DNA of 64,000 nucleotides from a phage: the NCBI GenBank assembly GCA_011911785.1, contig GCA_011911785.1_4084.1, one strand, 5' to 3'. This document shows, in pieces, positions 12,590 to 33,399 of the stretch; the stretch's first letter is position 1; each line of letters starts with the position of its first letter. The notes beneath the pieces were generated by a model. That model was not told the origin of the DNA and searched no databases. It saw nothing but the letters and a program-made list of their open reading frames with translations. The translations under genes and the position numbers were made by a program.

Positions 12590-12594
12590 GAAAA

Positions 12595-12616
12595 GGAGCC
12601 TATGGCTCCTTTTTTA
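12595..12616. terminator. bidirectional rho-independent terminator
   Basis: Hairpin ggagcc-tat-ggctcc flanked by A-run and T-run, between convergent genes. Confidence 0.6.
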
Positions 12617-13030
12617 TTATGCTTTTTTACGTAGGATGTATTGTCCATTATGTAATTTAATTTTGTGAATCATGTACATAGTGCAAAACCCTTCAATACC
12701 TGCTTCTTCATCTTTCAATTTAATGAAGAAAGTATTATCTCTTAGGCTTTCTACAAGGCTTTCATCTGAATCTTCGAAATTCATGATATATGAATCTTTA
12801 TTTCTATACACCATCTGAACATATTCATAAACCTTACCGCTTTCATCGATTAGATCATAAGTATGTGCTGAACGTTGTTTTAAAATATATAGTTTACCAA
12901 GAATAGCTGCTCCATTAATTTTAGCACCAGTAATTTCGATACCATTAATAGAAAAAGGAAGTCTTCCGGTTAATGCAATTGGTTTACCCATTATTATACT
13001 TCTCCAAGTAAAGTGCATGAAAATTATCAT
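12617..13030 (-). CDS. stand-alone paralog of the N-terminal module of the large Ig-like proteins
   Basis: 137-aa protein; LPFSINGIEITGAKINGAA..YILKQRSAHTYDLIDE resembles the N-termini of the 13049..15475 and 21833..27478 products. Confidence 0.45.
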   Translation of the reverse strand: MIIFMHFTWRSIIMGKPIALTGRLPFSINGIEITGAKINGAAILGKLYILKQRSAHTYDLIDESGKVYEYVQMVYRNKDSYIMNFEDSDESLVESLRDNTFFIKLKDEEAGIEGFCTMYMIHKIKLHNGQYILRKKA

Positions 13031-13048
13031 GCACTATATTATTAAAAA

Positions 13049-15475
13049 TTAAGCACTGATTGTTACAGTTGCAGTATCAGTTTTATTGCCATTCGCAGTA
13101 GTCACTGTAATGACTACAGTACCTTCTTCTAGAGCAGTTACTAATCCATCATCACTAATAGATACTTTAGTAGGTTCATCTGCACTATAAGTTACTGATT
13201 TGTTAGTTGCGTTAGCTGGAAGAACTTCTGGAACTAGTTGAACTGTTTTAGTACCTGATAGTGAAAGATCAGTGGCTTTAGGTGTTAAACCAACGCTGGA
13301 TACTGGTACTGGAATATTAACAGTTACAGCACATTTTGCAGTTTTTGCACCATCAGTAGTTTTTACAGTGATATCAGCAGTACCGTTTGCAACAGCAGTG
13401 ATTAAACCACTTGCACTAACAGTTGCGACACCAGCAGCAGAAGTACTATAAGTTACTGCTTTGTTAGTTGCATTAGCTGGTAGTACAGTTGGTGTTAGTT
13501 GTTGAGTTGCACCAACAGATGTTAAAGTTGCTGTTGTTGGAGAAACAGAAACACTAGCTACAGGAACTGGGATTGACACAGTAATGACACCTTGACCTGT
13601 TTTACCACTTCCATCAGCGGCAGTTGCGATAATGTTTGCAGTACCGTTAGTTAACGCAGTTACAACACCAGTACTAGCATCAACTTTCGCTACAGCAGGT
13701 GCACTAGAAGACCATGTTACAGCTTTATTAGTTGCGTTAGCTGGAAGAACTTCAGCAGCCATTGCTTGAGTTGCGTTAACAGCAGTCAATGTTTTAGTTG
13801 CTGGTGTAACATTAATAGTTGTTACTGGAACTGGAATTGCTACAGTTACTGCACAAACCGCAGTTTTTGCACCATCAGCGGTTGTTACGGTGATGTTAGC
13901 AGTGCCATTTGCTACAGCAGTTATCAATCCTGAAGTGCTAACAGTTGCTACACCCGCATTAGAAGTACTATAAGTTACTGCTTTATTGGTTGCATTAGTT
14001 GGTGCAACCGATGGTGTTAGTTGTTGTGTTGCACCAACAGATTTTAAAGTTGCTGTTGTTGGAGAAACAGAAACACCAGTTACTGGTACTGGAATATTAA
14101 CAGTTACAGCACAAACTTTACTAAAGCCACCATCAGCAGTAGTAGCCGTGATATTAGCAGTGCCATTCGCTACCGCAGTGATTAAACCACTTGTACTAAC
14201 GGTTGCAACACCAGCAGCAGAAGTTGCGTATGTTACTGCTTTGTTACGAGCATTAGCTGGTAGAACAGTTGCAGTTAATTGCTGTGTTGCACCAACAGAA
14301 GTTAATGAAGCGGTTGCAGGTGTTAGGTTAATACCAGTTACTGGGATCGTCACATCAATAATTGATTGTGCGGTTTTTTCACCATCAATAGTTGTTACGG
14401 TAATAGTGGCAGTACCATTATTAACAGAAGTTACTAAACCGTCATCATCAACTTCTGCTACTGTAGGTGCAGAAGATTCATAACGAACTTCCTGATTTGA
14501 TGCAGTTCTTGGTAGTACCGTTGCTGTTAATGGTTCATTTGCACCAATAGTAGTGAATGTATATGTTTCAGGTGTTAACGTAACACCAGTTACTGCTGTT
14601 TGAACTTTAATAGAAGAAGTATCAGTAAATGAACCATCTTCAGATGTTGCAGTAATAGTAACATCACCATTGGATACACCTGTTACCAACCCAGAATCTT
14701 TATCAACTGTTGCAACGGATGGAGCAGATGAAGTCCATGTAACTTTCTTGTCTGTTGCTGAGGCCGGAGTAACTTCAGCTAACAATTGTTGAGTTGCCCC
14801 AACGTTTACAGTTGCAGTTTTAGGAGAAACGGTAACACCAGTAACACCAGTACTGACAACGATAGAACACACATCTGTGAAATCACCATCGTGAGTTGTT
14901 ACGGTTACATCAGCATTGCCATTTGCAAGTGCAGTTGCTAGACCTGTTTGAGCATCAACTTCAACGATTGTAGGAGCAGATGAAGAGTAGGTTACGGTCT
15001 TGTCTTTTGCATTAGATGGAACTACTTGGGCTGATAGTTGTTTTGTTGCACCAACTTTAAGAGATGCATCTTTGGGTGTAATTACAACACCAGTTACGGG
15101 GATATCAGCATTAACATAATCGCGTTTTACGATACGACCATTATTTAATTTAATAACACGACCCATATAAAGCATAGTATATCCCATACTAATACCATCA
15201 TCAACATAGATCATGAATGAATTGTCTTGAACCATATTAATTGCGTCTGCTGGCTCAACAGAATTTGGAATGTCGATACCACGAGTATCATACCAACGCA
15301 TGGAAACTTTGTAATAGATATCACCATTATCATTGATGAGATCATACACGTTACCGGAACGTTGACGGTTAATATATAAAGTTTCGGTTAACACCTTACC
15401 ATCGATTTTAGCGACAGAAACTTTAATACCACCAATACCAAAAGGCAATTTACCTTCACTAGATATTGCTTTCAT
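13049..15475 (-). CDS. Ig-like (Big_2-type) repeat virion-surface protein, putative adhesin or decoration protein
   Basis: 808 aa; shared N-terminal module then about 8 tandem ~85-aa repeats of Big_2 character (VTGVxVSP..ATQQL..V.P.NAT.K.VTY.SS...VATV...GL.TAV..G.A.IT). Confidence 0.6.
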   Translation of the reverse strand: MKAISSEGKLPFGIGGIKVSVAKIDGKVLTETLYINRQRSGNVYDLINDNGDIYYKVSMRWYDTRGIDIPNSVEPADAINMVQDNSFMIYVDDGISMGYTMLYMGRVIKLNNGRIVKRDYVNADIPVTGVVITPKDASLKVGATKQLSAQVVPSNAKDKTVTYSSSAPTIVEVDAQTGLATALANGNADVTVTTHDGDFTDVCSIVVSTGVTGVTVSPKTATVNVGATQQLLAEVTPASATDKKVTWTSSAPSVATVDKDSGLVTGVSNGDVTITATSEDGSFTDTSSIKVQTAVTGVTLTPETYTFTTIGANEPLTATVLPRTASNQEVRYESSAPTVAEVDDDGLVTSVNNGTATITVTTIDGEKTAQSIIDVTIPVTGINLTPATASLTSVGATQQLTATVLPANARNKAVTYATSAAGVATVSTSGLITAVANGTANITATTADGGFSKVCAVTVNIPVPVTGVSVSPTTATLKSVGATQQLTPSVAPTNATNKAVTYSTSNAGVATVSTSGLITAVANGTANITVTTADGAKTAVCAVTVAIPVPVTTINVTPATKTLTAVNATQAMAAEVLPANATNKAVTWSSSAPAVAKVDASTGVVTALTNGTANIIATAADGSGKTGQGVITVSIPVPVASVSVSPTTATLTSVGATQQLTPTVLPANATNKAVTYSTSAAGVATVSASGLITAVANGTADITVKTTDGAKTAKCAVTVNIPVPVSSVGLTPKATDLSLSGTKTVQLVPEVLPANATNKSVTYSADEPTKVSISDDGLVTALEEGTVVITVTTANGNKTDTATVTISA
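13250..14330. repeat. intragenic tandem DNA repeats (~250 bp units) encoding near-identical Ig-like domains
   Basis: Identical 31-mer ctggtactggaatattaacagttacagcaca at 13313..13343 and 14084..14114; flanking sequence also closely similar. Confidence 0.6.
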
Positions 15476-15511
15476 ATACTTTCCTTTATAAATTGTATTG
15501 TAGTGTTATAT

Positions 15512-15519
15512 TATTTATA
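15512..15519 (-). promoter_or_regulatory. T4-type late promoter element (TATAAATA on minus strand)
   Basis: Plus-strand tatttata at 15512..15519, about 40 nt upstream of the minus-strand gene start at 15475. Confidence 0.35.
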
Positions 15520-15543
15520 TTATACCAAAAGTATTTTAGGATT

Positions 15544-15566
15544 AAAAAAAGGAGTCCGAAGACTCC
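15544..15566 (-). terminator. rho-independent terminator (minus strand)
   Basis: Hairpin ggagtc-cgaa-gactcc; on the minus strand it is followed by a 7-nt U-tract; lies just downstream of gene 15580..17283. Confidence 0.55.
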
Positions 15567-15579
15567 TTAAAATATAAAG

Positions 15580-17283
15580 TTATTGGAAACGAGCATACGG
15601 TGGAAATCTGGTTTGGTCAGGTTCATCTTGTTGGATTACACCGAATACAACAGGAACAGCAATAAATTTCTCATCTGGACAAATAACTTCAATTAATTGA
15701 CCACGCATTTTTACAAAATTATCAGTCATTATTGGAATTGTATAGTCGTATACACAGTCAACTGGTGTATAATTAACTGTAACATAACGTCTTTCATTAG
15801 GCGACATATCTGAAACTTTTGCAGGGTCTAACGAAATACCAGTCATTGGAGTACTAGTACAATTAATTATTAGTACATCTGAGTTAAAGTTTGCTGCTGA
15901 TGTAGGTGGACATACATACGACACAGTGACTGGAGAATATGGTTTAGTTGTACCAAAAAACTTCAATGTTAAATCTGTATTAGATGAACCATTGTGTTTT
16001 GCCACATCCGATGATGATTGCCAATGACCATCAGGAAGATATGAATATTCTGGAATTAACACATAATCAAATTTTACATTATTTTTGTTATACGATGATG
16101 TTGAAATATCCCCTTGTACTTTAATAGTATGTTTTTGGTCTGGGAATTTCAATCCAGTTGCTTTTGGTAATATACCAGATGCACGAACAGTGTTAGAAGA
16201 TACTTTTCCATCCAGAGATACCGCAGTAACCATGATTGAAGGTTGTGTTGGATTGTATGATGGTCCATCCCCAACTGGCTTAGTTTTAAAATATGCTCTT
16301 TCTGGAGTACTTTTATCTGCTAGATATACTAGATTCGGTGCATCATTGAACTTACAACCGTGGAATGTATTATCTGGAACATATGAGATATCAACATAAA
16401 ATTCATCACCAAAATTTAAAGTTCCAGGAACTGGATTTGATAGATTTATTATTTGAACTGATGGATAAGTTGTGTGGCATGTAAATGAAGCAGATGAACT
16501 ACCATCACTTGTGTGCCATGTAGAAACGACAGGAGTACTGGATTCTTCAATTACTGTAAAATGTGCACGGTATGGAGTACTGTCTGTTTCAAGACTCAAT
16601 ACATCTTTTGGGAAATCCCAATAACCACTTTCATTACCTAAGTATGGGTCATATAATATATCCACATAAAAATCAGTACCTTTTGGAGAAGACACTATTG
16701 ATGGATTAATTTTAACTTTAACATCAGGTTTGATAATATTACAGGTAACACCATCATAATCACCACCAACGTTACACACTAGTGTTTTAGGTTCACTATC
16801 TTTAGGTAAGACTAACGCTTTGAAATGAGCACGAGTGTCAGTACTGTCATTAATTTTCTCAAAATAAGTTGTATCAAATACCCAAGATGGATATCCTTTA
16901 TTCTTATCATATTCAACATCAATAAAGAAGTCATCCCCGACAATTACAGTAACATTCTTAGGTGTTAACTTAATTGGAACTGGTGCATCAGGATCAACAA
17001 CTGTAACATTACAAATTAGAGTTTGTGTTTTATCATAGGTTGGTACATATGAAACTGGAAATTTACCCGCTTTAATTGCAGTAAGGATTATCAGTGTTGG
17101 TGTTTCAGTGGTTGCAATTAAGCTTTTTTTATCATAATTCCAGTCCCCGACTTTCTGGTTATCAGGTGTATCAGAACTGAAATCTGCGAAAATTTGTTTA
17201 GTGTCACCAATTTTCATTTCCAAATGGGATGGATTTAATGTAACTGAAAACAAATTCTCTATATTTTTTACTTTCTTAGACAT
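15580..17283 (-). CDS. Ig-like repeat protein (second repeat class)
   Basis: 567 aa; several ~90-aa repeats with consensus GDxFxIDIxYxPDxAxHxGxW.YD...STxxRAHFKxxK and a conserved Cys. Confidence 0.5.
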   Translation of the reverse strand: MSKKVKNIENLFSVTLNPSHLEMKIGDTKQIFADFSSDTPDNQKVGDWNYDKKSLIATTETPTLIILTAIKAGKFPVSYVPTYDKTQTLICNVTVVDPDAPVPIKLTPKNVTVIVGDDFFIDVEYDKNKGYPSWVFDTTYFEKINDSTDTRAHFKALVLPKDSEPKTLVCNVGGDYDGVTCNIIKPDVKVKINPSIVSSPKGTDFYVDILYDPYLGNESGYWDFPKDVLSLETDSTPYRAHFTVIEESSTPVVSTWHTSDGSSSASFTCHTTYPSVQIINLSNPVPGTLNFGDEFYVDISYVPDNTFHGCKFNDAPNLVYLADKSTPERAYFKTKPVGDGPSYNPTQPSIMVTAVSLDGKVSSNTVRASGILPKATGLKFPDQKHTIKVQGDISTSSYNKNNVKFDYVLIPEYSYLPDGHWQSSSDVAKHNGSSNTDLTLKFFGTTKPYSPVTVSYVCPPTSAANFNSDVLIINCTSTPMTGISLDPAKVSDMSPNERRYVTVNYTPVDCVYDYTIPIMTDNFVKMRGQLIEVICPDEKFIAVPVVFGVIQQDEPDQTRFPPYARFQ

Positions 17284-17295
17284 AATAGTTTTACC

Positions 17296-19185
17296 TCATC
17301 TATTATTGATTGTTAATATACAAGCATCTACTTTTGAATTTAACGTAATATACGTAATAGGTGTAGTAGTATCACCTGTAGATTTTAATGTTCTGAACTT
17401 TGCCTTATTAATTATACTACCATCATCTAGTCTCTCAACTAATGTATCATCGAACACCCATCTCCCTGCTGGATTTGCATCACTAGGTGTAAATGTTGCA
17501 ATAACATTAAACTCTTGATACAAATCTTTTGTTAGAGATTTTGGTGTTACAGCTACTGCTGTTGGTGACGGTTGTGCTTTAATAAGACAATATGCATCTG
17601 CACTTTTACCCTCCGAATTGTAAGTTATTTGTTGAAATTGATCTGATTCTTTTAGTGCTGTAAAATATCCAACGTCAGAGGTACTAATATCTTCTTTTTG
17701 GATGTAATTAGAATCATATGTCCAAGTTCCGCTATGGGCAGCAGTATCTGGTATATAATCTATGTTTATTGCAAATGTGGATGAAACAGTTACTGCTTGT
17801 GTTTGTGGTGAAAGTTTAATACTATCCAAGGGTTTATAGGGTGATATTCTACATATATTAGAATCATTTACGGATGCAGATGTATTTGATATAAATGTAA
17901 TAGTCATAGGGTCTGTATTATATTTCAATACTGTAAAAACACCACAATCATCAGTACTGGAATCGCTTAATTCAAATGTTTCTTTATCATATATCCATAT
18001 ACCACCATGAATGGAATAATCCGGTGTATAATTTACATTAATTTTAAAAGTATCACCTACATATACAGATTCAGTTTTCGGACTTAATGAAACACTACTT
18101 GGTGGTGTACTTGAATCGATTTTACATGTATTATACCCAATTCTATTAAGGGTTGAATATGATATTTGTAATGGTGTTGGAGTTTCATCTAAAACGAAGA
18201 ATCTTACATATTGACCAGCATTTGATTTATCTACCATACGAAGCTTTGTTGCATCATATAGCCATGTACCTAATGGATATGTACCAGGTGGATCGTATTC
18301 AACATTTATTGTGAAGTAGTCACCTTTTTTAACTTCTTCGGTTCCTGGTGAAAGTGTAATAGATTTAAGTTTTTGAATGTGGCATTTATTTTTAGCAGAT
18401 ACATTTCCAGAAACAAAGTAAGTTAAATCTATTCCTTCTGGTGGTGTTTCTTCTATTGCTTTAAAATGTGCTCTTACTGTTGAGTCAGTATCATTAATCA
18501 AAGATACTTTTGTTTGGTCATAGTTCCATATACCATTCTTTTCAGCATTACTTGGAACATATGTTATGTCAATATAAAAATCTTCATCTTCCGATACTAT
18601 TTCACTACTTGGGGATAGTATAACTTCTGACGCTTCTGTACTGGAAATATGACATTGGTTAGTGTCCTTAATATCATTGTATGAAAAAGATATTAATGTA
18701 GTTTGTTGTTCTGATGATATTACTTCAAATGTACCAACATCCATATCATCATTAATTAGTTTAAGCACTGCATGATCATATGTCCATTCACCAACATGTG
18801 GTGCATCATTTGGTGTGTAAGTCACATTTACATCAAATGTATCACCAAATGAAACAACTTCATTCTTAGGAGATAGCGTGATTTTTTCAAGTGGTGTTGT
18901 ATTAATATTCACATAGCAAACCCCTGATAGTAATGGATTTGTGTCTGGAATATAAGTTATTTTTGTTGATCCTTGTTTGAGTGCAGTGAATGAAAATGTA
19001 GTCGATGTAATATCAGGTGAATCACTACTAATAAATTCTGAATCATAAACCCACTTTCCTTTTTTATATGGATAGTTGACTGGATTGAAAACAACTTCTA
19101 ATACATCAGATTCTTGTATATCTATGTTTTCATACCTAGGTATAATTCTAACACTTATTAAAGTGTCGCTATTTTGATTAGTCAT
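17296..19185 (-). CDS. Ig-like repeat protein (second repeat class)
   Basis: 629 aa; about 7 repeats of the same ~90-aa unit. Confidence 0.5.
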   Translation of the reverse strand: MTNQNSDTLISVRIIPRYENIDIQESDVLEVVFNPVNYPYKKGKWVYDSEFISSDSPDITSTTFSFTALKQGSTKITYIPDTNPLLSGVCYVNINTTPLEKITLSPKNEVVSFGDTFDVNVTYTPNDAPHVGEWTYDHAVLKLINDDMDVGTFEVISSEQQTTLISFSYNDIKDTNQCHISSTEASEVILSPSSEIVSEDEDFYIDITYVPSNAEKNGIWNYDQTKVSLINDTDSTVRAHFKAIEETPPEGIDLTYFVSGNVSAKNKCHIQKLKSITLSPGTEEVKKGDYFTINVEYDPPGTYPLGTWLYDATKLRMVDKSNAGQYVRFFVLDETPTPLQISYSTLNRIGYNTCKIDSSTPPSSVSLSPKTESVYVGDTFKINVNYTPDYSIHGGIWIYDKETFELSDSSTDDCGVFTVLKYNTDPMTITFISNTSASVNDSNICRISPYKPLDSIKLSPQTQAVTVSSTFAINIDYIPDTAAHSGTWTYDSNYIQKEDISTSDVGYFTALKESDQFQQITYNSEGKSADAYCLIKAQPSPTAVAVTPKSLTKDLYQEFNVIATFTPSDANPAGRWVFDDTLVERLDDGSIINKAKFRTLKSTGDTTTPITYITLNSKVDACILTINNR

Positions 19186-19205
19186 ATAATAACCTCCGGT
19201 ATAAA

Positions 19206-19231
19206 AGATGCCACCGAAATGGCATCTTTTT
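19206..19231. terminator. terminator-like hairpin
   Basis: agatgcca-ccgaaa-tggcatct followed by ttttt on the plus strand; lies between two minus-strand genes, so orientation and function are uncertain. Confidence 0.35.
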
Positions 19232-19243
19232 GTTTATTTGTAA

Positions 19244-21742
19244 TTAACGAATTATGAAACAGGTGGCATATGCTTCAGGTGGGGTTTGGTCAGGATTAAT
19301 TGGAGTACTGACAAATCTCATAGAGGTTGGACCTGTTGGAGCATTATCTTTAACTTTAAAGTGTGCAACATCCATAGTACTATCCTGTTGATATTCCAAT
19401 ATAGTTTCATCGACATACCATGTACCTTTATGTTGTGCACTTTCTGGTTCATATATAACTGTAACATAGAAATCACTTCCACTTGATGTTGGAATGCGGG
19501 ATGGTGTTATAGATACACTATCGGTGTTTGAAAATTCAATTGTACATGTATGCACTGCTTTATTTTTCCCATCACCATAATCATAAGTGATATCAGTATC
19601 CCCTGCCTCAACATTTTTTAAGACATAGAAACCAACTTCATCATGAGGGTAATCACTTGGCAAAAATGCAATCTTATCCATATCATAAGTCCATGTACCT
19701 TTATGTTTAGCATCGTCAGGATCGTAACTAACAACTATATTAATTGCGTCACCTGGTTTCAAGGTAGACTTCGGTGGAATTAATGAGATTGATTCAACGT
19801 CAGGATATTTCACTATACATTTATAATTCACTGGGTCAACACCATCTGGCTGGAATGAAAGAATTACACCATCTTCAGTTGTTGGTTTTAATGCTCTAAA
19901 CACAGTAACATCAGGAGTACATTTTTCTTTAACAAACTCAACGATGTCCGCTGGGTAGTTCCATTGTAGACGACCAGTATGTTGTGCAGTTAGAGGCATG
20001 TAGGTCATATTGATGGTAAATTCTTCACCAACTTCATGTGCACCATTATCGGGGGATATAGCAACACTGTCCAAATATGAATACCCAACTGTAATGTTAA
20101 ATGCAACAGCATTTTCCTCTTTCACACTTTCAGGAATAAAATAGACATTTGTTGATTTTGATGTTGATTTAGAACTCTTAACATACCCAACATCAGCAGT
20201 TGTTCCGGTCCCCATTGCTGCAACATCTTCATCTTCTATTTTCCATGTACCTGCATGTTTTGCTGTTTCTGGATTATAATTCACCTTAACAATACTGATA
20301 TCATCATACGAAATTACATCACTAGGTGGTGTATAGGAATACGATATCAAATCAGAATAATCTATTTTACAAGGATAAGAATACTTAGAATATCCAGAAT
20401 CGAAAGTTAGATTAATTGTATCATTTGGTAATCCTGCGGCAAATGTGGATTTAAGGGAAGAGAATGTATATAGATCATCTTGTGGTGCACCTGAAAGTTT
20501 CACATATTGTTCAACATCTTGTATATCCCAAATACCACTATGTCTAGCAGTGTCTGGATTATATTTCACTTTAACATTGAATACATCTAGTGCTTTGATT
20601 TCTTTTGATGGGGGATCAAATTCTATTGAAATTAAATCCGAATAGTCAGGAACTATATTGATTGCGTTTGATTGAACCCCACCAGATGATTGGAAATATA
20701 TTGGTAATGCTGAATCGAACGGTTTGATAGTACTGAAATATCCACGGGTATCAGTTGATTTAGCAGATTCAAATTTGAAATGCTCTTCATCAAAAACCCA
20801 TTTACCAGTTTTGTTTGCAGACGCTGGTTCGAATACCATATCAATGAAAAAGCCATTTGGTACTTTGACGATCTTATCATCGGATTGTGCTGTAATTGAT
20901 TTAACTGGTGAATAAGTTACAGTAACGTTACATTCAGCTTTTGCTTTATCATTACAAATATAGCTAATAGTACTGGCAGTTTGTGGTGGTGTACTTTTAA
21001 GTGCAATGAAGGTTGCACCATCTAAGCCACTTTTTGTTTCATTAAGACTGAAGACTTCCTCATCATATTTCCAAATTCCCATTTTATCCGCAGTTGTTGG
21101 ATCATATGTTAATGCTAGATAGAATGATTCACCAACTTCACAACTTACTGTTTGTGGGTCAATTGTAACTGAATTGATTGGGTTATTAGTTAAGAAGTAA
21201 TTACATTCTGCACTTACTGAACCTACTGATGCAGTTATTTTACCATTACAAGGGTCGGTTGATATAACATTAAACAATCCAGATTTTCTAGAACTAAGCA
21301 TTGGCACTAACGCAATTTGTGTGTTATCATAATCCCATACTGGTACGTCTATACCATTATCGGGTGAATATTCCACTTCAATGGTGAATTTATTAGGACT
21401 AAGCCCCGATGTCATTAAACTTGGGGTGAGTTTCATTGAACTCACTGATTGGTTTAATACTGTAATTGTACAAGTCGCTGATGATGATTTATTATCATCT
21501 GGTGTAAATGTAATGGTTGCTGTTCCTGTTTTTAGAGCAGTATAATCACATTGTAAACCACTTCTATATCCTATTTTAACAACGTCAGGATTATCACAAT
21601 CCCATTGACCTGCTTTATGTGTCCATGATTGTGGTTCATAGACTACGTTTAATTCAGATGTATCGTTAACATAGACCACTGAAGACCTACCTTCCTTAAA
21701 ATGAACGGAACGCAATGTTTCGAATTGATTTGTATTTTTCAT
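19244..21742 (-). CDS. Ig-like repeat protein (second repeat class)
   Basis: 832 aa; about 9 repeats of the same unit. Confidence 0.5.
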   Translation of the reverse strand: MKNTNQFETLRSVHFKEGRSSVVYVNDTSELNVVYEPQSWTHKAGQWDCDNPDVVKIGYRSGLQCDYTALKTGTATITFTPDDNKSSSATCTITVLNQSVSSMKLTPSLMTSGLSPNKFTIEVEYSPDNGIDVPVWDYDNTQIALVPMLSSRKSGLFNVISTDPCNGKITASVGSVSAECNYFLTNNPINSVTIDPQTVSCEVGESFYLALTYDPTTADKMGIWKYDEEVFSLNETKSGLDGATFIALKSTPPQTASTISYICNDKAKAECNVTVTYSPVKSITAQSDDKIVKVPNGFFIDMVFEPASANKTGKWVFDEEHFKFESAKSTDTRGYFSTIKPFDSALPIYFQSSGGVQSNAINIVPDYSDLISIEFDPPSKEIKALDVFNVKVKYNPDTARHSGIWDIQDVEQYVKLSGAPQDDLYTFSSLKSTFAAGLPNDTINLTFDSGYSKYSYPCKIDYSDLISYSYTPPSDVISYDDISIVKVNYNPETAKHAGTWKIEDEDVAAMGTGTTADVGYVKSSKSTSKSTNVYFIPESVKEENAVAFNITVGYSYLDSVAISPDNGAHEVGEEFTINMTYMPLTAQHTGRLQWNYPADIVEFVKEKCTPDVTVFRALKPTTEDGVILSFQPDGVDPVNYKCIVKYPDVESISLIPPKSTLKPGDAINIVVSYDPDDAKHKGTWTYDMDKIAFLPSDYPHDEVGFYVLKNVEAGDTDITYDYGDGKNKAVHTCTIEFSNTDSVSITPSRIPTSSGSDFYVTVIYEPESAQHKGTWYVDETILEYQQDSTMDVAHFKVKDNAPTGPTSMRFVSTPINPDQTPPEAYATCFIIR

Positions 21743-21832
21743 TATATAATCTCCTATAAATGAATTTGTATTATGGGGAACTTATAATTAAGCTCCCCGT
21801 CGAACGAGTTTATATTATACACCTCCGATATT

Positions 21833-24800
21833 TTAAAAATCTGCTGTTATGGTTATTGTCTTGGTAATCCCAGCCTCTTTAACTTCATACGTAAGCGTAA
21901 TTGGATTCTCTGGCTTCTTGATTAGATAAAAATGAACTATCGTTTTCATTGGAGGCCAGTTCACTGAAAGATACGTCTCGTCATAAGTTAATGTACCAGT
22001 ATATAACGCATCGTCAGGATGGTTTGTAAGGAATGCAACATACATTTTACCTAATGCTGTGATGTTTACATGATCAGACTTTGTGGTCTTTTCAATAAAA
22101 TCAACTGATACCAAAGGTGACGCAGTTGATACAATATGAACAGAATTAGTTGAATATGCATCATGACCTGTACCTTGGGTGTACTTAAATTTTACATCAA
22201 TCCCTTCTGGTGGAGTTTCTAATATTGTCATTAAGTTATGAGAATCACTAAAAACCTTATAATCATATGGAGGAAGTGCAACAACTGATTCATGTAATCT
22301 ACCATCACCTATTGCATCAGGTGGATTTACGGTCATAACTACATAGTTTCCATATGAGTTTGCTTTTGTTGTAAACGAATCTGGTGTTATGGTGAATGAT
22401 TCAACATATGGTCTTAGTGGAGTTATCTGTGCTGTTGCAGGAGCGTAACCAGGAATTGTATAAACTAAATCAAACGGAGCACCAAGCACTTCAGCAGTTT
22501 TATCCACTGGTATTTCATCCTCGTCAAAATAATCTATACCGTAAACTGGTTGTTGATAATAACTATCACCAACAGATGGATCGTAAGCTGTAACTTTAAA
22601 ATATGCTTCAGTCAATGTACTCTTAGCTGGGATATATTCGCAGTAGTTTAATGCCTCACCACTAAATGTACCAGCAAGTGGTATAACATTAGATGGTTTG
22701 AAAACAATATTAACTTTAAATTCCATACCTTTGTGGTAATCATTTTTACCAGGCAAACCAAGACTTATTGATTGTATAATATCATGAACAACCGTACATT
22801 TGTTTGTTGCAGTTTTACCCGAACTTGTATAAATCAATGAAATTGGATTTGGATCTGATTTCAATGCTTTAAAATGTGCACGGTCAGGGGTACTGTCTGA
22901 AAGTAATTCAAAATACCCAACTGCAACTGACCCATCAGATAAACTATAAGACCAAGAACCTTTATGATCTGCTGTATCAGGTGTATATGTGATATCAATA
23001 TAGAAATCATCACCAGCATCCAACTCTTCTGTAGCTGGAGATAATGAAATAGATTCCAATACACTATAATCAACATAACATATAGTTTTATTCGAAACAA
23101 TGTTACCACAAATAAACTGCAATTCTAACTCATCAACCGTTTTAATAGCTTTAAAGTGTGCACGGTCTGGTGTACTATCACTCTCAAGTGTTAAGTACTG
23201 GTCAAATCCAGATGTATTCCACGTACCAGTATGTTCAGCACTATCTGGTGTATATGTAATATCAATATAGAAATCATCACCAGTCTTCACTTCTATAGTA
23301 CTTGGCGAAATAGTAATTGCAGACAATGCACTATGTTGTATTGTACAAGTAGATGAACTAGATTTACCAGAACTGGTATATGTCAGTGTTATTGGTGAAC
23401 TGCTATATTTTTTAACTTGGAAGTGTGCTTTATCTGGAGTACTATCACTTTCAAGAGATAAGTATTCTTCAAAATCACTGGTATTCCATGTACCAATATG
23501 CTGTGCAGTATCAGGTGTATATGTGATATCAATATAGAAATCATCGCCAATAGCTGGAGTTACCGATTCAGGGGACAATTTAACATCAGTTAATTGTGAA
23601 TAAGGTATAACTGTTACATCAGCACTTTTCTTTGCACTAGTAAATGTTAACTTTTTAGAATCAGGTAGCTGTTTGATTACATCAAAATAAGCTTCACTTT
23701 CAGTACTTCTAGAGGTTAGATATGAGAAATAATCAGTTTCATAACTCCATTTACCAGATTTCAAAGCGGTATCCGGCACATAAGTTATAGTAACATCAAA
23801 CGTATCACCATCATTAACATTAATACTAGGTGGATTTACTGATACAGATTCTAACTTGTCATAAAGAATAGAGCATGTATTTTCTGTGGTTACACCAGCA
23901 CTAGAGAATGATATTTGTTGTGTACTTTCGGTTGATGGTGGCTTTGCAATAACTTCAAATACCCCAACATCGGCGGTGCTTTTTGATGTATCTAACTTAA
24001 GATATGTTTCATCATACGCCCAATCACCTTTATGTTCAGCAGTGCTTGGTTCGTATGTTATAGCAATATCAATAATATCACCAACTGATACGGTTTCATT
24101 ATCAGGTGATAATGTCAATTTAACCAACTTGTCATATTTCGCAGTACATGTATTTTCAGCATATTTTCCATTAGTACTGGTATATTTCAATACAGTTGGT
24201 GTATCTGAACGTTTGAGTACTTGGAATTGCTGCTGTTCATAATTAATTGGTTCAATCAATTTAATCATATCAGTATCATATTCCCATGTACCAATATGCT
24301 GAGCACTATCTGGTGTATAGGATATGTCTATTGTGAATGTATCACCATTCAAAACAGTTTCAGAATCAGGAGTTAAATCCACTGATGTTAATAAATCATA
24401 ACGTGCATCACATGTATTAGTTTTAGTGATTCCTGCACTAGTAAAAGATATTACCAATGGTGTATCAGATTTTTTCAGCACTTTAAATTGTGGTTTATCG
24501 TAATCATCTGGGTTCAATAACTCCAAATGGTCTTTATCATAATCCCATGTACCAATGTGTTGTGCTGTATCAGGTGTATATGTAATATCAATTACAAATG
24601 TTTCACCCAATGGGACAATTTCACTAGCTGGTGTTATTGAGAAATCGGTTAATTTATCATACTTAGCATCGCAAATACTATTACCCTTAACACTACCTTG
24701 TTCAAATGTTATTGTTAATGGAGTATCAGACTTTTTGATTACTGTAAAATTACCTTTCTCGTACTCAACACTTTGAGCCGCATTATATTGTAAGTACTCT

Positions 24801-27478
24801 TTGTCATAAACCCATTCACCAATGTGTTGAGCCGTATCAGGTTCATATTTCACTTCAATATCAAAAGATTCACCCAACGGAACAGTTTCATTTGCAGGTG
24901 ATAAAGTAATCCCAGTAAGTGCATCATAACTTGCAACACATGTGTTTGTTGCGGAGTGTCCAGTTGACTTATATGTTAATGTTAATGGAGTATCTGATTT
25001 CTTAATAACCTTAAATATCCCTTTTTCATATTCTCCATTATTAAGATGTTCCAAATATTCATGGTCGAATAACCAAACACCAAAATGATATGCAGTATCA
25101 GGTTCATATTTTATATCAATAGTGAATGTTGAACCTAATGGGGCAATTTCGGATGTAGGAGAAAGTGAAATCCCAGTTAATACATCATGTGATGAATCAA
25201 CGTTAACATATGCTGGATATGCATTACCATTTTGGTAGCTCATACTAACATTTGGTGATTTCTCAATAATTTTAAAGTGAGCACGTTCAGGTGTACTGTC
25301 ATCTAAATGAGTCAAATAATATTGATTGTAATACCACGCACCAGCATGTTCTGCATTATCAGGTTCATATGTTAAATCAATATAGAAATCAGTTCCGACT
25401 GGTGCAATAATTTTAGAAGGATTTGCTGTTATTATAGTTGGTGTTACAAAAGGAACACTACCATAAATGGTATTACTTGTAATGGAACCAGACTTATAGG
25501 TAAATGCAAGTTTATCTTGTGTATCTTTAATAGCTAAGAATCTTGCATAATTTGGTGCTTCTGGGTCCATTCCTTGATACTCAAAATGTTCTTTGTCATA
25601 TTCCCATGTACCAGTGTGTTCTGCTTCATCAGGTGTATAAGTTAGTTCAATATATGCAAGTTCACCAACAGTTAATATTTGGAATCGTATAGGGTCATAA
25701 GCAGCAATTGTAAGTGATTCCAAATCTTTATAATCAACTTTACACTCATTAGTTGCAGTAACTTTACCTTCTGAGTACACTAAATCAATTTTATCAATAT
25801 GTTTTAATGCTTTAAAGTGTGCTTTATCAGCAGTTGACTTAGTACTATCAAATGTGATATATTCTTTAAACGTATCAGTATTCCATGCACCTTCGTGTTT
25901 AGCGGTGTCTGGTACATAAGATATCTCAATATCAAATTCATCACCAATCTTCACAGTTTCTGATGTAGGATTCAGTACTAGTGAAGTTAAATCAGAATAT
26001 AGGACATTGAAGCTAACTGTTTTAGCATCACCACCACCATCTGGGGTAAATGTTGCAGTTGTGGTTCCTTGCTTCTTGGCTACGTAGTACATTACATCAT
26101 CGGTACTTTTAGTTGTATCTTCTTCAACGATCCCAACTGGTTCAAATGTCCAAGTACCACCTTTTTGTGCATTGTTTGGTGTATAAGTAATGTCAATTTT
26201 ACCAGTACTTTCTGGTTTGATATTGGATACAGTACTAGGTGTTAACACTACACTTTTCAAATCAGCATACTCAACCGTGAAGTTGACTTCTGGTAAATCT
26301 TTAGTATAATCTGCACTTGGTGTAAATGTAGCTTTTGTACTACCATGTTCAAGTAGCTGGTAATCAAATTTAGTATCTGTATGCGAAATACTTTTTACTA
26401 TATTAGTATCATCAATTGACCATGTTCCACCTTGTTTGGCGTTATCAGGGGTATAGATTATTTCAATCGTGCCAGATGAACCCGCTTTGTCATCTACAGA
26501 GGCAGGTTTGAGTTCTACATTGTCCAACGCAGCATAAGTTATGTCAATTGTTGCAGCCGCAGTTTTAGTTTTATCTTCATTTAATGTGAAGAGTACACTG
26601 GTGGTTGGGTGAACATTTTCTTTGACAGCTATTGCTTTAAACGTTATACTATTTTCGTCTTCACTTACAACTTCAAGAACATTTGTGTTGTATCCACTCC
26701 ATACACCACCACGTTTAGCTGGGGCATAATCGACTGGATCATAAACAACAGATACAGTAAATGTATCATTAAGTTTTACATCAATTGGGTTTGGGTTGAG
26801 AGAAACACTAAAGAGGACGTTAGGATCATCATGTAAATGACCGAACGCGGTTGATTTTAAATGAGGTTTGTTTGTGGGAGTGAATGATATTTCTACTGGA
26901 ATATCACCATCAATGACTCCTGCTTGGAGGATAATACTATTTTTATCACTATGTACTTCAGTTAAATGTTCAGTTGGGTATGTCCATGTACCAGATTGGT
27001 CAGGCCAATCTTTCGGAGAGAAGTAAGCAGTGAATTGCATTTTATCATTTGAATAAAGAACAAAATCATCTGGCTTTATTATAACTTTAGACAACGAATT
27101 TGGCTCCACGTTCGTTCTTCTGAAAATTATTTCACCATTATGTAATTTTATTTTATTACTTTGATATTGAATACCAAAACCATACTTATTATTAATAGCA
27201 TCAGCTTCTTTTATGCAAAATGTATTATTTGCTAAAGATTTAGCAATTTCAGCATCGTCATCATCATACAACAATGTTGATTTATCTTTATTTCTACCTG
27301 TGATTTTTATATCTTTGTAAATCTTGAAATTTTCAGATATTAAATCATATGAATCGAATGTTCTTTGTTTTATAACATACAATTCTTTAACAAATACTTG
27401 CCCTTCTATCTTTGCAGCAGTAACCTGCAATCCACCTATAACAAATGGAAATTGATCTAAGCCAGCTATTGGTTTCAT
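21833..27478 (-). CDS. giant Ig-like repeat protein with shared N-terminal module
   Basis: 1881 aa; N-terminus paralogous to 13049..15475 and 12617..13030, then about 18 repeats of the ~90-aa unit. Confidence 0.55.
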   Translation of the reverse strand: MKPIAGLDQFPFVIGGLQVTAAKIEGQVFVKELYVIKQRTFDSYDLISENFKIYKDIKITGRNKDKSTLLYDDDDAEIAKSLANNTFCIKEADAINNKYGFGIQYQSNKIKLHNGEIIFRRTNVEPNSLSKVIIKPDDFVLYSNDKMQFTAYFSPKDWPDQSGTWTYPTEHLTEVHSDKNSIILQAGVIDGDIPVEISFTPTNKPHLKSTAFGHLHDDPNVLFSVSLNPNPIDVKLNDTFTVSVVYDPVDYAPAKRGGVWSGYNTNVLEVVSEDENSITFKAIAVKENVHPTTSVLFTLNEDKTKTAAATIDITYAALDNVELKPASVDDKAGSSGTIEIIYTPDNAKQGGTWSIDDTNIVKSISHTDTKFDYQLLEHGSTKATFTPSADYTKDLPEVNFTVEYADLKSVVLTPSTVSNIKPESTGKIDITYTPNNAQKGGTWTFEPVGIVEEDTTKSTDDVMYYVAKKQGTTTATFTPDGGGDAKTVSFNVLYSDLTSLVLNPTSETVKIGDEFDIEISYVPDTAKHEGAWNTDTFKEYITFDSTKSTADKAHFKALKHIDKIDLVYSEGKVTATNECKVDYKDLESLTIAAYDPIRFQILTVGELAYIELTYTPDEAEHTGTWEYDKEHFEYQGMDPEAPNYARFLAIKDTQDKLAFTYKSGSITSNTIYGSVPFVTPTIITANPSKIIAPVGTDFYIDLTYEPDNAEHAGAWYYNQYYLTHLDDSTPERAHFKIIEKSPNVSMSYQNGNAYPAYVNVDSSHDVLTGISLSPTSEIAPLGSTFTIDIKYEPDTAYHFGVWLFDHEYLEHLNNGEYEKGIFKVIKKSDTPLTLTYKSTGHSATNTCVASYDALTGITLSPANETVPLGESFDIEVKYEPDTAQHIGEWVYDKEYLQYNAAQSVEYEKGNFTVIKKSDTPLTITFEQGSVKGNSICDAKYDKLTDFSITPASEIVPLGETFVIDITYTPDTAQHIGTWDYDKDHLELLNPDDYDKPQFKVLKKSDTPLVISFTSAGITKTNTCDARYDLLTSVDLTPDSETVLNGDTFTIDISYTPDSAQHIGTWEYDTDMIKLIEPINYEQQQFQVLKRSDTPTVLKYTSTNGKYAENTCTAKYDKLVKLTLSPDNETVSVGDIIDIAITYEPSTAEHKGDWAYDETYLKLDTSKSTADVGVFEVIAKPPSTESTQQISFSSAGVTTENTCSILYDKLESVSVNPPSINVNDGDTFDVTITYVPDTALKSGKWSYETDYFSYLTSRSTESEAYFDVIKQLPDSKKLTFTSAKKSADVTVIPYSQLTDVKLSPESVTPAIGDDFYIDITYTPDTAQHIGTWNTSDFEEYLSLESDSTPDKAHFQVKKYSSSPITLTYTSSGKSSSSTCTIQHSALSAITISPSTIEVKTGDDFYIDITYTPDSAEHTGTWNTSGFDQYLTLESDSTPDRAHFKAIKTVDELELQFICGNIVSNKTICYVDYSVLESISLSPATEELDAGDDFYIDITYTPDTADHKGSWSYSLSDGSVAVGYFELLSDSTPDRAHFKALKSDPNPISLIYTSSGKTATNKCTVVHDIIQSISLGLPGKNDYHKGMEFKVNIVFKPSNVIPLAGTFSGEALNYCEYIPAKSTLTEAYFKVTAYDPSVGDSYYQQPVYGIDYFDEDEIPVDKTAEVLGAPFDLVYTIPGYAPATAQITPLRPYVESFTITPDSFTTKANSYGNYVVMTVNPPDAIGDGRLHESVVALPPYDYKVFSDSHNLMTILETPPEGIDVKFKYTQGTGHDAYSTNSVHIVSTASPLVSVDFIEKTTKSDHVNITALGKMYVAFLTNHPDDALYTGTLTYDETYLSVNWPPMKTIVHFYLIKKPENPITLTYEVKEAGITKTITITADF

Positions 27479-32998: not shown

Positions 32999-33005
32999 TC
33001 TATTA

Positions 33006-33034
33006 TTGACATTAAATGTGTTCATTGCTATAAT
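33006..33034 (+). promoter_or_regulatory. consensus sigma70 promoter (TTGACA-17 nt-TATAAT)
   Basis: Perfect -35 at 33006..33011 and perfect -10 at 33029..33034; RBS aaggaag and ATG 33067 downstream. Confidence 0.6.
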
Positions 33035-33066
33035 GAACACACCATTATCGAAGAAGGAAGTAAATC

Positions 33067-33255: not shown

Positions 33256-33271
33256 TTTAACGCGTTTTTTT

Positions 33272-33334
33272 GGAGTTCTTAATAAATACTTTCATAAGAA
33301 TAATAATACTTTTTATGAATTTAAAAAGAACTCC
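33272..33334 (+). repeat. long inverted repeat (nested stem-loop)
   Basis: 9-nt arms ggagttctt / aagaactcc around a 45-nt AT-rich loop that contains a second inverted repeat (ttcataa / ttatgaa). Confidence 0.5.
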
Positions 33335-33387: not shown

Positions 33388-33399
33388 TGGTGGTAAACT

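What the first reader, a model, noticed from the sequence alone, without database searches (positions are those of the whole stretch)
12617..27478. 15 kb block of giant Ig-like repeat proteins sharing a modular N-terminal domain, with near-identical intragenic tandem repeats
Six consecutive minus-strand genes encode proteins made almost entirely of tandem ~85-90-aa Ig-like repeats (about 45 repeats in total), in two repeat classes. Three of them, including a 137-aa stand-alone copy, share an N-terminal ~130-aa module that probably anchors them to the virion. Within 13049..15475 several repeats are nearly identical at the DNA level (exact 31-mer at 13313 and 14084), which predicts frequent in-frame expansion or contraction by recombination. 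Such an investment in surface Ig-like arrays suggests adhesion to host envelope, mucus or particles, in the manner of Hoc-like decoration proteins.
Basis: partly seen in the sequence, partly recalled or inferred. Interest (0 to 1): 0.6.

Follow-up and report, generated by a model that had tools for sequence, protein, structure and literature searches.

The report
Giant Ig-repeat virion decoration cassette
A giant E. coli phage carries a 15-kb, unusually variable block of genes for long strings of antibody-like domains, and three of the genes start with a small module that related phages carry in their particles, which makes it an extreme version of the known "sticky hair" decoration proteins of phages rather than a new kind of system.

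Summary
The block is real. Six minus-strand genes (12617-27478) lie in an Asteriusvirus (121Q/PBECO4-like jumbo coliphage). Five are Ig-like arrays with 47-50 domains in all: 8 canonical Big_2 and about 40 of a divergent Big_2-like class (AlphaFold pLDDT 95). Three genes share a ~125-aa N-terminal module. The claimed exact 31-mer is wrong; the exact repeats are 33-mers at 13301/14081 and 13522/14044. The most similar repeats are 72-82% identical in DNA, not nearly identical.

The module belongs to a small family (93 clusters in 1.84 billion representatives) that is always N-terminal. Homologues were found in virions by mass spectrometry: phAPEC6 gp347 (75% coverage) and CBB_112. Its predicted fold, two small SH3/Tudor-like barrels, matches no solved structure.

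The slot is conserved across Rak2-like phages, but its content runs from one 125-aa gene to this 15-kb cassette. Phage A4, 98-99% identical in the flanks, has an 11.4-kb deletion at a 9-bp microhomology and lacks exactly one Big_2 repeat. Flanking genes are 96-100% identical between relatives, while the anchorless arrays are 28-38% identical.

Best reading: non-essential, Hoc/pb10-like virion "hairs" with a different anchor. Where they attach, what they bind and how the three anchorless proteins behave are unknown. It is a new variant of a known kind.

The parts
12617..12991 (-). Stand-alone N-terminal anchor module gene (124 aa, pI 8.6). The mechanical ORF extends to 13030 (137 aa), but the RBS-supported start is the ATG at 12991.
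   Evidence: (phrog_10468 and phrog_33171). It is 99% identical to A4_463.
12591..12613 (.). Bidirectional hairpin terminator that closes the cassette against the converging + strand genes.
13049..15475 (-). 808-aa protein: anchor module (15095-15475) followed by 8 canonical Big_2 repeats (13052-15103). Repeats 4, 5 and 7 are recent duplicates.
   Evidence: (Big_2 E 3e-135, 8 stretches)
15512..15525 (-). GTATAATATAAA motif containing TATAAATA (the T4-type late-promoter octamer), 37 nt upstream of the 808-aa gene.
   Evidence: only 3 TATAAATA in 64 kb against 11.2 expected
15549..15568 (-). Intrinsic terminator after the 567-aa gene.
15580..17283 (-). 567-aa anchorless array: 4 clear class-2 Ig-like repeats plus a divergent C-terminal ~220 aa.
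17296..19185 (-). 629-aa anchorless array: 7 class-2 Ig-like repeats.
19203..19230 (.). Hairpin terminator after the 832-aa gene.
19244..21742 (-). 832-aa anchorless array: 9 class-2 Ig-like repeats. The first repeat passes the Pfam Big_2 threshold.
21809..21820 (-). Second exact copy of GTATAATATAAA, upstream of the 832-aa gene.
21833..27478 (-). 1881-aa (209 kDa) protein: anchor module (27098-27478) followed by 18-20 class-2 Ig-like repeats (residues 123-1868).
15613..15621 (.). Left copy of the 9-bp microhomology TTGGTCAGG at which phage A4 has lost 11,383 bp.
26996..27004 (.). Right copy of the same 9-bp microhomology (A4 deletion junction).
23508..23545 (-). Exact 38-mer, repeated at 22974-23011, that encodes the conserved GDDFYIDITYTPD motif. 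Similarity to the L008 homologue collapses about 22 nt downstream of it, which marks a mosaic breakpoint.

Best explanation
The block is an accessory cassette for virion-surface decoration in an Asteriusvirus jumbo coliphage.

Proposed mechanism:
- A conserved ~125-aa N-terminal module, predicted to form two small SH3/Tudor-like beta-barrels, docks the protein on a conserved site of the particle. This is inferred. The most likely site is one of the still unassigned decoration sites on the T=28 capsid, such as the hexamer centre. A ring on the tail sheath is the less likely alternative.
- From the module, flexible acidic strings of 8 or about 19 Ig-like domains project outwards. At about 4 nm per domain (established knowledge of Ig arrays) that is roughly 30 and 75 nm.
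- Three paralogous anchors in the window (on the 8-domain string, on the ~19-domain string, and bare) compete for or share binding sites. The phage would therefore display a mixture of long hairs, short hairs and plain 'caps'.
- The arrays give weak, multivalent adhesion to glycans on host cells or gut mucus, as proposed for T4 Hoc. They are dispensable for lytic growth.
- The distal third of the big protein and the three anchorless array genes are exchanged wholesale between related phages by recombination at conserved motif-coding DNA. The Big_2 gene gains and loses whole repeats by unequal recombination between similar repeats.

What is shown: domain identity, module sharing, virion presence of module homologues, variability, the deletion, and purifying selection.
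What is inferred: attachment site, adhesion, ligand, and virion association of the anchorless proteins.
For: - Ig fold: Pfam Big_2. The class-2 repeat model has pLDDT 95.4, and its top PDB matches are the lambda gpV Ig domain, Big/Big_2 domains and a phage SU10 surface protein.
- Anchor module: present in three genes. The family has 93 clusters among 1.84e9 representatives, is always at residues 1-~125, and is followed by Big_2 in 43, or by Big_1 or invasin domains, or by nothing.
- Virion presence of homologues: phAPEC6 gp347, 8 peptides and 75.2% coverage, equal to the major capsid protein (PMC7247149). CBB_112, 4 peptides and 24.3% coverage (PMC5259590).
- Unassigned sites: 121Q and phAPEC6 have unassigned decoration densities at hexamer centres and local two-folds, and fibres on capsid and sheath.
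- Late-gene signal: a TATAAATA octamer lies 37 nt before the 808-aa gene. The octamer is otherwise depleted (3 observed against 11.2 expected), and the other two copies precede large ORFs.
- Dispensability: phage A4 is a plaque-forming isolate with 98-99% identical flanks. It lacks 11.4 kb of the cassette, and its anchor remnant is broken.
- Functional constraint: dN/dS is 0.09-0.17 for the proximal arrays and the module, and 0.3-0.5 for the distal and anchorless parts, against 0.02-0.07 for flanking genes.
- Modular variation: the anchor is 95-100% conserved between relatives, while the anchorless arrays are 28-38% identical next to flanks at 96-100%. There is a sharp break at residue ~1330 of the big protein.
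- Repeat-number variation: 8/7/7/6/4/1/0 Big_2 repeats in relatives, and A4 lacks exactly repeat 5.
- Close analogy to Hoc: a conserved capsid-binding domain, variable acidic Ig strings, several paralogues per phage, non-essential (PMC10385173). Analogy to T5 pb10 (PMC5292684).
Against: - There is no proteomic or imaging data for this phage.
- The 832-, 629- and 567-aa proteins have no anchor and no conserved terminal docking peptide, so their place in the particle is pure inference.
- 121Q and phAPEC6 are 'hairy' although they carry only the bare module in this slot. The hairs seen there are therefore encoded elsewhere, and the arrays here cannot simply be equated with them.
- No ligand is known. 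Only one clear T4-type late promoter was found for five transcription-unit candidates.
Confidence: 0.6

Rival explanations
1. The arrays are tail-borne fibres ('whiskers'), anchored by the module in rings on the sheath or collar. They act in primary host recognition, so the cassette would be a host-range determinant rather than a general adhesion coat.
For: - phAPEC6, CBB and 121Q carry fibres at defined rings on the sheath, and the genes for them are unassigned.
- The pattern of a conserved proximal part and a swapped distal part is typical of tail-fibre mosaicism (established knowledge).
- Databases label homologues 'major tail protein'.
Against: - The 'major tail protein' label comes only from the Ig repeats, which resemble the lambda gpV C-terminal domain. 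No tail-tube domain is present.
- phAPEC6 and 121Q have sheath fibres yet carry only the bare 125-aa module here.
- The 75% coverage of gp347 points to a copy number like that of the capsid protein.
- A4 plates on E. coli without the class-2 arrays.
- No receptor-binding tip domain, such as a lectin, beta-helix or depolymerase, was detected.
Confidence: 0.2
2. Only the module-bearing proteins are virion parts. The three anchorless array proteins are soluble late proteins released at lysis, for example decoys or matrix and cell-surface binders acting away from the particle. Alternatively they are leftover, slowly decaying duplicates.
For: - They have no anchor module and no conserved terminal peptide.
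- Their dN/dS is higher, at 0.30-0.41.
- They are the part removed in A4 and replaced in L007-L009.
Against: - Gene number, order and approximate length are kept in all four cassette-bearing relatives (836-874, 541-714 and 567-733 aa) despite about 30% identity.
- All are intact ORFs of 541-874 codons with dN/dS below 1.
- They sit in the same transcription direction, between anchored genes, with their own RBS and terminators.
- They have no signal peptide, so they cannot be exported before lysis (sequence).
Confidence: 0.15
3. The module is a capsid cement protein whose job is mechanical stabilisation. Under this reading the Ig strings are selectively almost neutral passengers that expand and contract by recombination, the 'promiscuous' Ig domains of Fraser et al. 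2006.
For: - In most Asteriusviruses the slot holds the module alone, and that form is abundant in virions.
- Arrays are lost without loss of viability.
Against: - 14 kb of array coding sequence stays open, with dN/dS 0.09-0.17 over 1,175 codons at dS 0.46-1.2.
- Arrays recur across the whole module family.
- A neutral passenger of this size would decay quickly in a lytic phage genome (inference).
Confidence: 0.05

Closest known systems
Module+Ig 'structural proteins' of Rak2-like jumbo phages: RaK2 gp496, CBB_112, GAP32 Ig-domain protein, 121Q gp471, phAPEC6 gp347 (phrog_33171 / phrog_10468 / phrog_215)
   Same: - The N-terminal module is homologous: tblastn 31-54% identity, PHROG E 1e-13 to 1e-18.
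- The genome slot is the same, opposite in strand to the neighbouring dCMP deaminase and ClpP-like genes.
- It is followed by Big_2 domains where any are present.
- Two homologues were found in virions by mass spectrometry.
   Different: - Known members carry 0-7 Ig domains in one or two genes. Here there are six genes, 47-50 domains and a 1881-aa member.
- About 40 domains belong to a divergent class with no tblastn match in 50,697 phage genomes.
- Three array genes have no module.
T4 Hoc and Hoc-like fibres (PMC10385173)
   Same: - A conserved particle-binding domain is joined to a variable, acidic string of Ig-like domains.
- There are several paralogues per phage sharing the binding domain.
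- They are non-essential.
- The number of domains varies greatly between relatives; the largest described is 10 domains in 1174 aa.
   Different: - The anchor is N-terminal rather than C-terminal, and its predicted fold is unrelated and all-beta.
- No significant sequence match was found. The best was a Hoc-like ORF90 at E 0.08, over an Ig repeat only.
- About 19 domains in one chain.
- The binding site is unknown.
T5 pb10 (PMC5292684)
   Same: The order of parts is the same, with an N-terminal capsid-binding domain followed by C-terminal Ig-like domain(s). pb10 sits at hexamer centres, a site that is occupied by an unassigned protein in 121Q and phAPEC6.
C-terminal Ig-like (Big_2) domain of lambda tail tube protein gpV
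   Same: It is the best structural match of the class-2 repeat (7t4f_A, TM 0.74, probability 1.00; 2l04).
   Different: In lambda it is one accessory domain on a tail-tube protein. No tail-tube domain exists here, so the 'major tail protein' labels on homologues are annotation carry-over.

Membership tests
Big_2 bacterial Ig-like domain (PF02368) | A match to the Pfam profile above the gathering score. | tested here: met
   The 808-aa protein scores 440.8 bits against a cut-off of 22.8, with 8 stretches. The first repeat of the 832-aa protein scores 46.2 bits.
Big_2 bacterial Ig-like domain (PF02368) | The same, for the ~40 class-2 repeats. | tested here: not met
   There is no Big_2 hit in the 1881-, 629- or 567-aa proteins. 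The only hits are Ig-like profiles whose individual repeats stay sub-threshold (HYDIN/VesB, ASH, Cep192_D3). My class-2 HMM does cross-hit the Big_2 repeats at E 1e-5 to 1e-11, so the two classes are related but divergent.
Ig-like beta-sandwich fold | A confident structure model with the Ig-like topology and matches to solved Ig-like domains. | tested here: met
   The class-2 repeat model has pLDDT 95.4 and 8 strands. Top PDB matches are the lambda gpV Ig domain (TM 0.74), a Leptospira Big domain, Big_2-CBM56 and an SU10 surface protein, each with probability 1.00. Foldseek E-values are only 0.02-0.2.
Rak2-like phage virion module family (phrog_33171 / phrog_10468) | Sequence match to the family profile, at the N-terminus. 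| tested here: met
   E-values are 1.7e-18 (1881-aa), 1.5e-13 (808-aa), and 2.7e-16 / 2.8e-18 (137-aa). The module is always at residues 1-~125 in 93 representative proteins.
Rak2-like phage virion module family (phrog_33171 / phrog_10468) | A conserved genome slot beside the dCMP deaminase gene, on the opposite strand. | tested here: met
   The slot is the same in A4, UE-S1, 121Q, phAPEC6, RaK2 and CBB.
Rak2-like phage virion module family (phrog_33171 / phrog_10468) | Physical presence in the virion. | not testable with these tools
   This is shown only for homologues: phAPEC6 gp347 and CBB_112, by mass spectrometry. No data exist for this phage.
T4 Hoc family | A homologous C-terminal capsid-binding domain. 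| tested here: not met
   The shared module is N-terminal. No Hoc-related family appears in Pfam or PHROGs for the module. There is no PDB sequence match and no fold match.
T4 Hoc family | One copy bound at the centre of each capsid hexamer. | not testable with these tools
   This needs cryo-EM. An unassigned hexamer-centre density exists in 121Q and phAPEC6.
T4 Hoc family | Not essential for plaque formation. | tested here: inconclusive
   The natural relative A4 lacks the class-2 arrays and has a broken first anchor, but it keeps the 722-aa and 124-aa genes. 121Q-type phages keep only the bare module. Nothing shows that the module itself is dispensable.
T5 pb10 | An N-terminal capsid-binding domain homologous to that of pb10. 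| tested here: not met
Phage major tail (tube) protein, as homologues are labelled in databases | A tail-tube domain. | tested here: not met
   All PHROG 'major tail protein' hits align only to the Ig repeats (for example residues 122-209 and 636-720), never to a tube domain.

The most novel reading that the evidence does not exclude
The ~125-aa module is the so far unidentified 'fibre-anchoring' decoration protein at the hexamer centres of the T=28 Asteriusvirus capsid. In this sub-lineage it has been fused to strings of up to ~19 Ig domains, so about 270 sites per head would carry hairs of up to ~75 nm. That would be the largest Hoc-type decoration known, built on an anchor fold with no solved relative. 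The three anchorless array proteins would join the coat in trans, by Ig-Ig contacts or through the bare module. The result would be a multi-gene, recombination-shuffled surface coat whose distal parts are swapped between phages in the way tail-fibre tips are.
Probability: 0.25. Interest if true: 0.65.

Novelty: new variant of a known kind. Interest (0 to 1): 0.45.

Why it matters
Ig-like decoration proteins are thought to let phages hold on to mucus or cell surfaces, but testable natural systems are few.

- **A natural experiment.** The window's phage and the isolate A4 are 98-99% identical around the cassette. They differ by a clean 11.4-kb loss of four array genes and by one Big_2 repeat. 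That allows a direct test of what such arrays do in the gut.
- **A candidate for an open structural question.** The module is an abundant virion protein with a predicted fold that has no solved relative. It is a concrete candidate for one of the unassigned decoration densities of 121Q and phAPEC6.
- **Size and dynamics.** At about 19 domains in one chain, the big protein is nearly twice the largest Hoc-like fibre described in PMC10385173. The cassette also shows how such coats evolve: a conserved anchor, shuffled distal domains, repeat slippage and microhomology deletions.
- **Possible use.** A small high-occupancy anchor could serve as a display handle on a very large capsid.

Tried and rejected
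- **The 31-mer at 13313/14084.** The two sequences are not identical. They were replaced by the true exact repeats.
- **One giant gene split by errors or read-through?** The gene pairs 1881/832, 629/567 and 808/137 are each in the same frame. However, several stops, RBSs, hairpins and terminators lie between them, and the same gene boundaries recur in three or four relatives. Rejected.
- **Homologues of the class-2 arrays.**
  - tblastn of two array queries against 50,697 phage genomes gave nothing.
  - A profile of 38 repeats against 5.8e9 protein clusters gave nothing at E <= 1e-3.
  - IMG/VR, GTDB genomes and JGI metagenomes gave no relative.
  - Only four relatives of the 1881-aa protein turned up.
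- **Complete E. coli genomes.** No match.
- **Conserved terminal docking peptides in the anchorless proteins.** None found.
- **tRNAs and Rfam families in the window.** None.
- **Sigma-70-type promoter scan.** Fewer sites than in shuffles, so uninformative.
- **Diversity-generating retroelement as the source of variability.** Not pursued. The divergence consists of whole domains at about 30% identity with sharp mosaic breaks, not adenine-specific changes in a short variable region.
- **Foreign origin judged by base composition.** No sign. G+C is 0.33-0.375, as in the rest of the window, and only the skew follows the strand switch.


Full report
**What is there.**
The interval 12617-27478 holds six consecutive minus-strand ORFs of 137, 808, 567, 629, 832 and 1881 codons. 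They are embedded among + strand genes. The GC skew flattens over the block, as expected for a strand switch, and G+C does not depart from the rest of the window. The ORFs total 4,854 codons in 14,862 bp.

The window comes from an Asteriusvirus, a 121Q/PBECO4-like jumbo coliphage of about 350 kb. The flanks match phage A4 (ON286972) at 98-99% DNA identity and other members at about 82%. The identical 1881-aa protein is on record from a 358,987-bp contig of an E. coli isolate assembly.

**Check of the observation.**
- Pfam finds eight Big_2 domains in the 808-aa protein (E 3e-135). In the other four large proteins it finds only weak Ig-like profiles.
- I built an HMM from 14 repeats of the 1881-aa protein and iterated it twice. 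It finds 18 significant domains there (plus one or two weak ones), 9 in the 832-aa protein, 7 in the 629-aa protein and 5 in the 567-aa protein. It cross-hits the Big_2 repeats weakly.
- The 137-aa product is not a repeat protein but the N-terminal module alone. Its RBS-supported start is the ATG at 12991, which gives 124 aa as annotated in A4.
- The module is shared by the 1881-, 808- and 124-aa products at 33-42% identity.
- The stated exact 31-mer (13313/14084) is not exact. The true exact repeats are 33-mers at 13301/14081 and 13522/14044, and a 38-mer at 22974/23508.
- Repeats 4, 5 and 7 of the Big_2 gene are 72-82% identical in DNA and the remaining pairs 54-65%. Class-2 repeats reach at most 68% DNA identity, with a median of 27% protein identity.
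- 'Nearly identical' is therefore an overstatement. Most of the block consists of old, diverged domains.

**The repeats.**
An AlphaFold model of one class-2 repeat, with the other 37 repeats as its alignment, has pLDDT 95.4 and an eight-stranded sandwich. Its best PDB matches are:
- the Ig-like domain of lambda gpV (TM 0.74);
- a Leptospira Big domain;
- Big_2-CBM56;
- a phage SU10 surface protein.

Foldseek gives each a probability of 1.00, although the E-values are only 0.02-0.2. A sequence profile of the repeats also finds the SU10 surface protein (E 1.7e-4). All five arrays are acidic (pI 4.5-5.05), and the bare module is basic (pI 8.6).

**The module.**
PHROGs places it in phrog_33171 and phrog_10468, 'virion structural protein'. 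A profile search of 1.84 billion representative proteins finds only 93 clusters. The module is at residues 1-~125 in every case, in proteins of 76-1859 aa. Of these, 43 carry Big_2, others carry Big_1 or invasin domains, and about a dozen are the module alone.

tblastn finds it only in Rak2-like jumbo phages, often in two or three copies per genome: Asteriusvirus, RaK2/K64-1, GAP32/CBB, Serratia BF, Yersinia fHe-Yen9, Erwinia and Xanthomonas phages.

Two homologues have direct proteomic support:
- phAPEC6 gp347, which is the module alone at 14.1 kDa, was found in virions with 8 unique peptides and 75.2% coverage. That is the highest coverage in the table and equal to the major capsid protein (PMC7247149).
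- CBB_112, module plus one Big_2, was found with 4 peptides and 24.3% coverage (PMC5259590).

The RaK2 authors had already suggested that gp496 acts in phage-host interaction.

**The slot and its variability.**
In every relative examined the same slot, between the dCMP-deaminase side and a ClpP-like protease gene, holds module genes on the opposite strand. The content differs greatly:

| Phage or contig | Content of the slot (aa) |
|---|---|
| 121Q, phAPEC6 | one 125-aa module gene plus a 46-aa module scar |
| RaK2 | 212 aa (module + 1 Big_2) |
| CBB | 218 aa (module + Big_2) |
| UE-S1 | 633 aa (6 Big_2) plus a module scar |
| A4 | 124 + 722 (7 Big_2) plus scars |
| L009 (Logan contig) | 1859, 874, 713, 84, 680, 465 (4 Big_2), 124 |
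| L008 (Logan contig) | 1872, 836, 714, 84, 669, 722 (7 Big_2), 124 |
| L007 (second E. coli assembly) | 1095, 839, 541, 733 |
| this window | 1881, 832, 629, 567, 808 (8 Big_2), 124 |

The class-2 arrays have no tblastn match in 50,697 deposited phage genomes. None were found in IMG/VR, GTDB genomes or JGI metagenomes. Only four relatives appear among 5.8 billion protein clusters.

**Three kinds of change can be read directly.**
1. *Large deletion.* A4 has lost 11,383 bp (window 15613/15622 to 26995/27004) at the 9-bp microhomology TTGGTCAGG. This joined codon ~160 of the big gene to the last codons of the 567-aa gene, and the remnant has since been broken. A4 is a plaque-forming isolate, so the four class-2 genes are dispensable in the laboratory.
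2. *Repeat loss.* The A4 Big_2 protein is identical to the window's protein over residues 1-459 and 546-808 and lacks exactly repeat 5. The junction lies in the CAVTV-IPVPVT boundary shared by repeats 4 and 5.
3. *Mosaic replacement.* Against L008, the big protein is 92% identical over residues 1-1300 and about 28% identical from 1350 to the end. The break lies about 22 nt past the exact 38-mer that encodes the conserved GDDFYIDITYTPD motif. Against L007, DNA identity of 98.5% stops at window 27119, which is the linker after the module.

Flanking genes are 96-100% identical in protein between the window and L007 or L008. The anchorless array proteins are only 28-38% identical to their positional counterparts.

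**Selection.**
I computed Nei-Gojobori dN/dS values:

| Region | dN/dS |
|---|---|
| module | 0.14-0.15 |
| proximal array of the big gene (1,175 codons, dS 0.46-1.2) | 0.09-0.17 |
| Big_2 array | 0.17 |
| anchorless genes, L008 vs L009 | 0.30-0.41 |
| distal third of the big gene, L008 vs L009 | 0.49 |
| flanking Sir2 and NUDIX genes | 0.02-0.07 |

dS in the L008-L009 comparison is near saturation, so those values are rough. The arrays are constrained, which argues that they are functional proteins. The distal and anchorless parts evolve faster. The extreme differences between relatives come from replacement, not from point mutation.

**Expression signals.**
The intergenic regions carry RBSs and hairpins. 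Terminators follow the 832-, 567- and 124-aa genes. The 12-mer GTATAATATAAA occurs exactly twice in the window, upstream of the 832- and 808-aa genes. The second copy contains TATAAATA, the T4 late-promoter octamer. A related ATAAATA motif was reported before structural genes in CBB and GAP32.

TATAAATA is depleted in the window, with 3 copies against 11.2 expected. The other two copies sit 32 and ~90 nt before two large paralogous ORFs. This fits late expression but is thin evidence.

**How it most likely works.**
- *Shown:* the Ig-like arrays, a shared N-terminal module whose homologues are virion proteins, dispensability of most arrays, purifying selection, a conserved anchor and shuffled distal parts.
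- *Inferred:* the module docks on a conserved site of the particle, and the acidic Ig strings project as flexible hairs. At about 4 nm per Ig domain (established knowledge of Ig arrays) these would be roughly 30 nm for 8 domains and 75 nm for 19. They would mediate weak multivalent adhesion to glycans on cells or mucus, as proposed for Hoc (PMC10385173, PMC5292684).

121Q and phAPEC6 have unassigned decoration densities at hexamer centres and across local two-folds, and fibres on capsid and sheath. The high coverage of gp347 favours a high-copy site, hence the capsid. However, those two phages are hairy with only the bare module in this slot, so the arrays here cannot be equated with their hairs. 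How the three anchorless proteins would join the particle is unknown. They have no conserved terminal peptide.

**Comparison with known systems.**
- The block belongs to the module+Ig family of Rak2-like phages by sequence, position and synteny.
- It works like Hoc: a conserved binding domain, variable acidic Ig strings, several paralogues and non-essentiality. It is not a Hoc family member, because the anchor is at the other end and unrelated.
- It shares the order of parts with T5 pb10, with no sign of homology.
- The 'major tail protein' labels on homologues come from the Ig repeats alone.
- What is new is the scale, the divergent repeat class, the anchorless array genes, and the documented dynamics. 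The scale is six genes, about 48 domains and about 19 domains in one chain, against 10 in the largest Hoc-like fibre described.

I therefore rate it a new variant of a known kind, of moderate interest. Its main value is the natural near-isogenic pair with phage A4 and a candidate identity for an unassigned jumbo-phage decoration protein.

Noticed in passing
window 15512-15519 (-), 42648-42655 (+), 45876-45883 (+): The T4-type late-promoter octamer TATAAATA occurs only 3 times in 64 kb, against 11.2 expected from shuffles. Each copy lies 30-90 nt upstream of a large ORF: the 808-aa gene, ORF 42687-45386 (899 aa) and ORF 45971-48739 (922 aa). This suggests a real signal that is avoided elsewhere.
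   Followed up: partly
window 42687-45386 (+) and 45971-48739 (+): Two paralogous ~900-aa proteins of unknown function (both phrog_3573, E about 1e-195 to 1e-207), separated by a 196-aa ORF. The size matches the 98.6-kDa virion protein gp323c of phAPEC6, but I did not test that link.
   Followed up: partly
L006 ~10320 (corresponds to window ~27151-27154, an A-run in codon ~108 of the 1881-aa gene): A close relative (98% identical, Logan SRR30543657) has one extra A in an A-run. This splits the gene into a 112-aa module ORF and a separate array ORF of more than 1,220 aa. It could be an assembly error or a natural uncoupling of anchor and array.
   Followed up: partly
L006 3661-4422 and L008 3646-4467 (position corresponds to the gap at window 32998-33400): Relatives carry a 253-273-aa ORF with Collagen and YadA_anchor Pfam hits next to the PhoH-like gene. 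The window has no such gene there. This is a second variable spot, holding a trimeric-autotransporter-like protein in a phage.
   Followed up: no
whole window: The identical 1881-aa protein is on record from a 358,987-bp contig of an E. coli isolate assembly (EES8153972.1 / EOR9074221.1, FOI42_RS03805). A second cassette variant comes from a 357,761-bp contig of GCA_012813795.2. These are whole lytic jumbo-phage genomes inside bacterial assemblies, as described in PMC12768965. Neither is in the complete-genome E. coli collection.
   Followed up: partly
L004 3864-4004 (121Q), L002 15563-15712 (UE-S1), L001 17021-17524 (A4): Short ORFs of 46-65 aa next to the slot genes are fragments of the anchor module or of a class-2 repeat. 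They are scars of earlier, larger cassettes in phages that now have a small one.
   Followed up: yes
L008 20366-20620 and L009 17340-17594: Relatives have an extra 84-aa gene encoding a single free-standing Ig-like domain between the third and fourth array genes. The window has only a 12-nt spacer at that place (17284-17295).
   Followed up: partly
window 13986-14483 (+): A 165-aa ORF antisense to the Big_2 gene has an Ala/Val/Thr-rich repetitive product. It is a by-product of the repeat composition on the other strand and not a gene.
   Followed up: yes
window 8957-9652, 27677-28282, 28685-29287 (+): Several ClpP-like or protease genes flank the cassette, next to Sir2-like, NUDIX, PhoH-like and anaerobic ribonucleotide reductase genes. 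The late, opposite-strand decoration cassette therefore sits in the middle of a metabolic and early-gene region.
   Followed up: no
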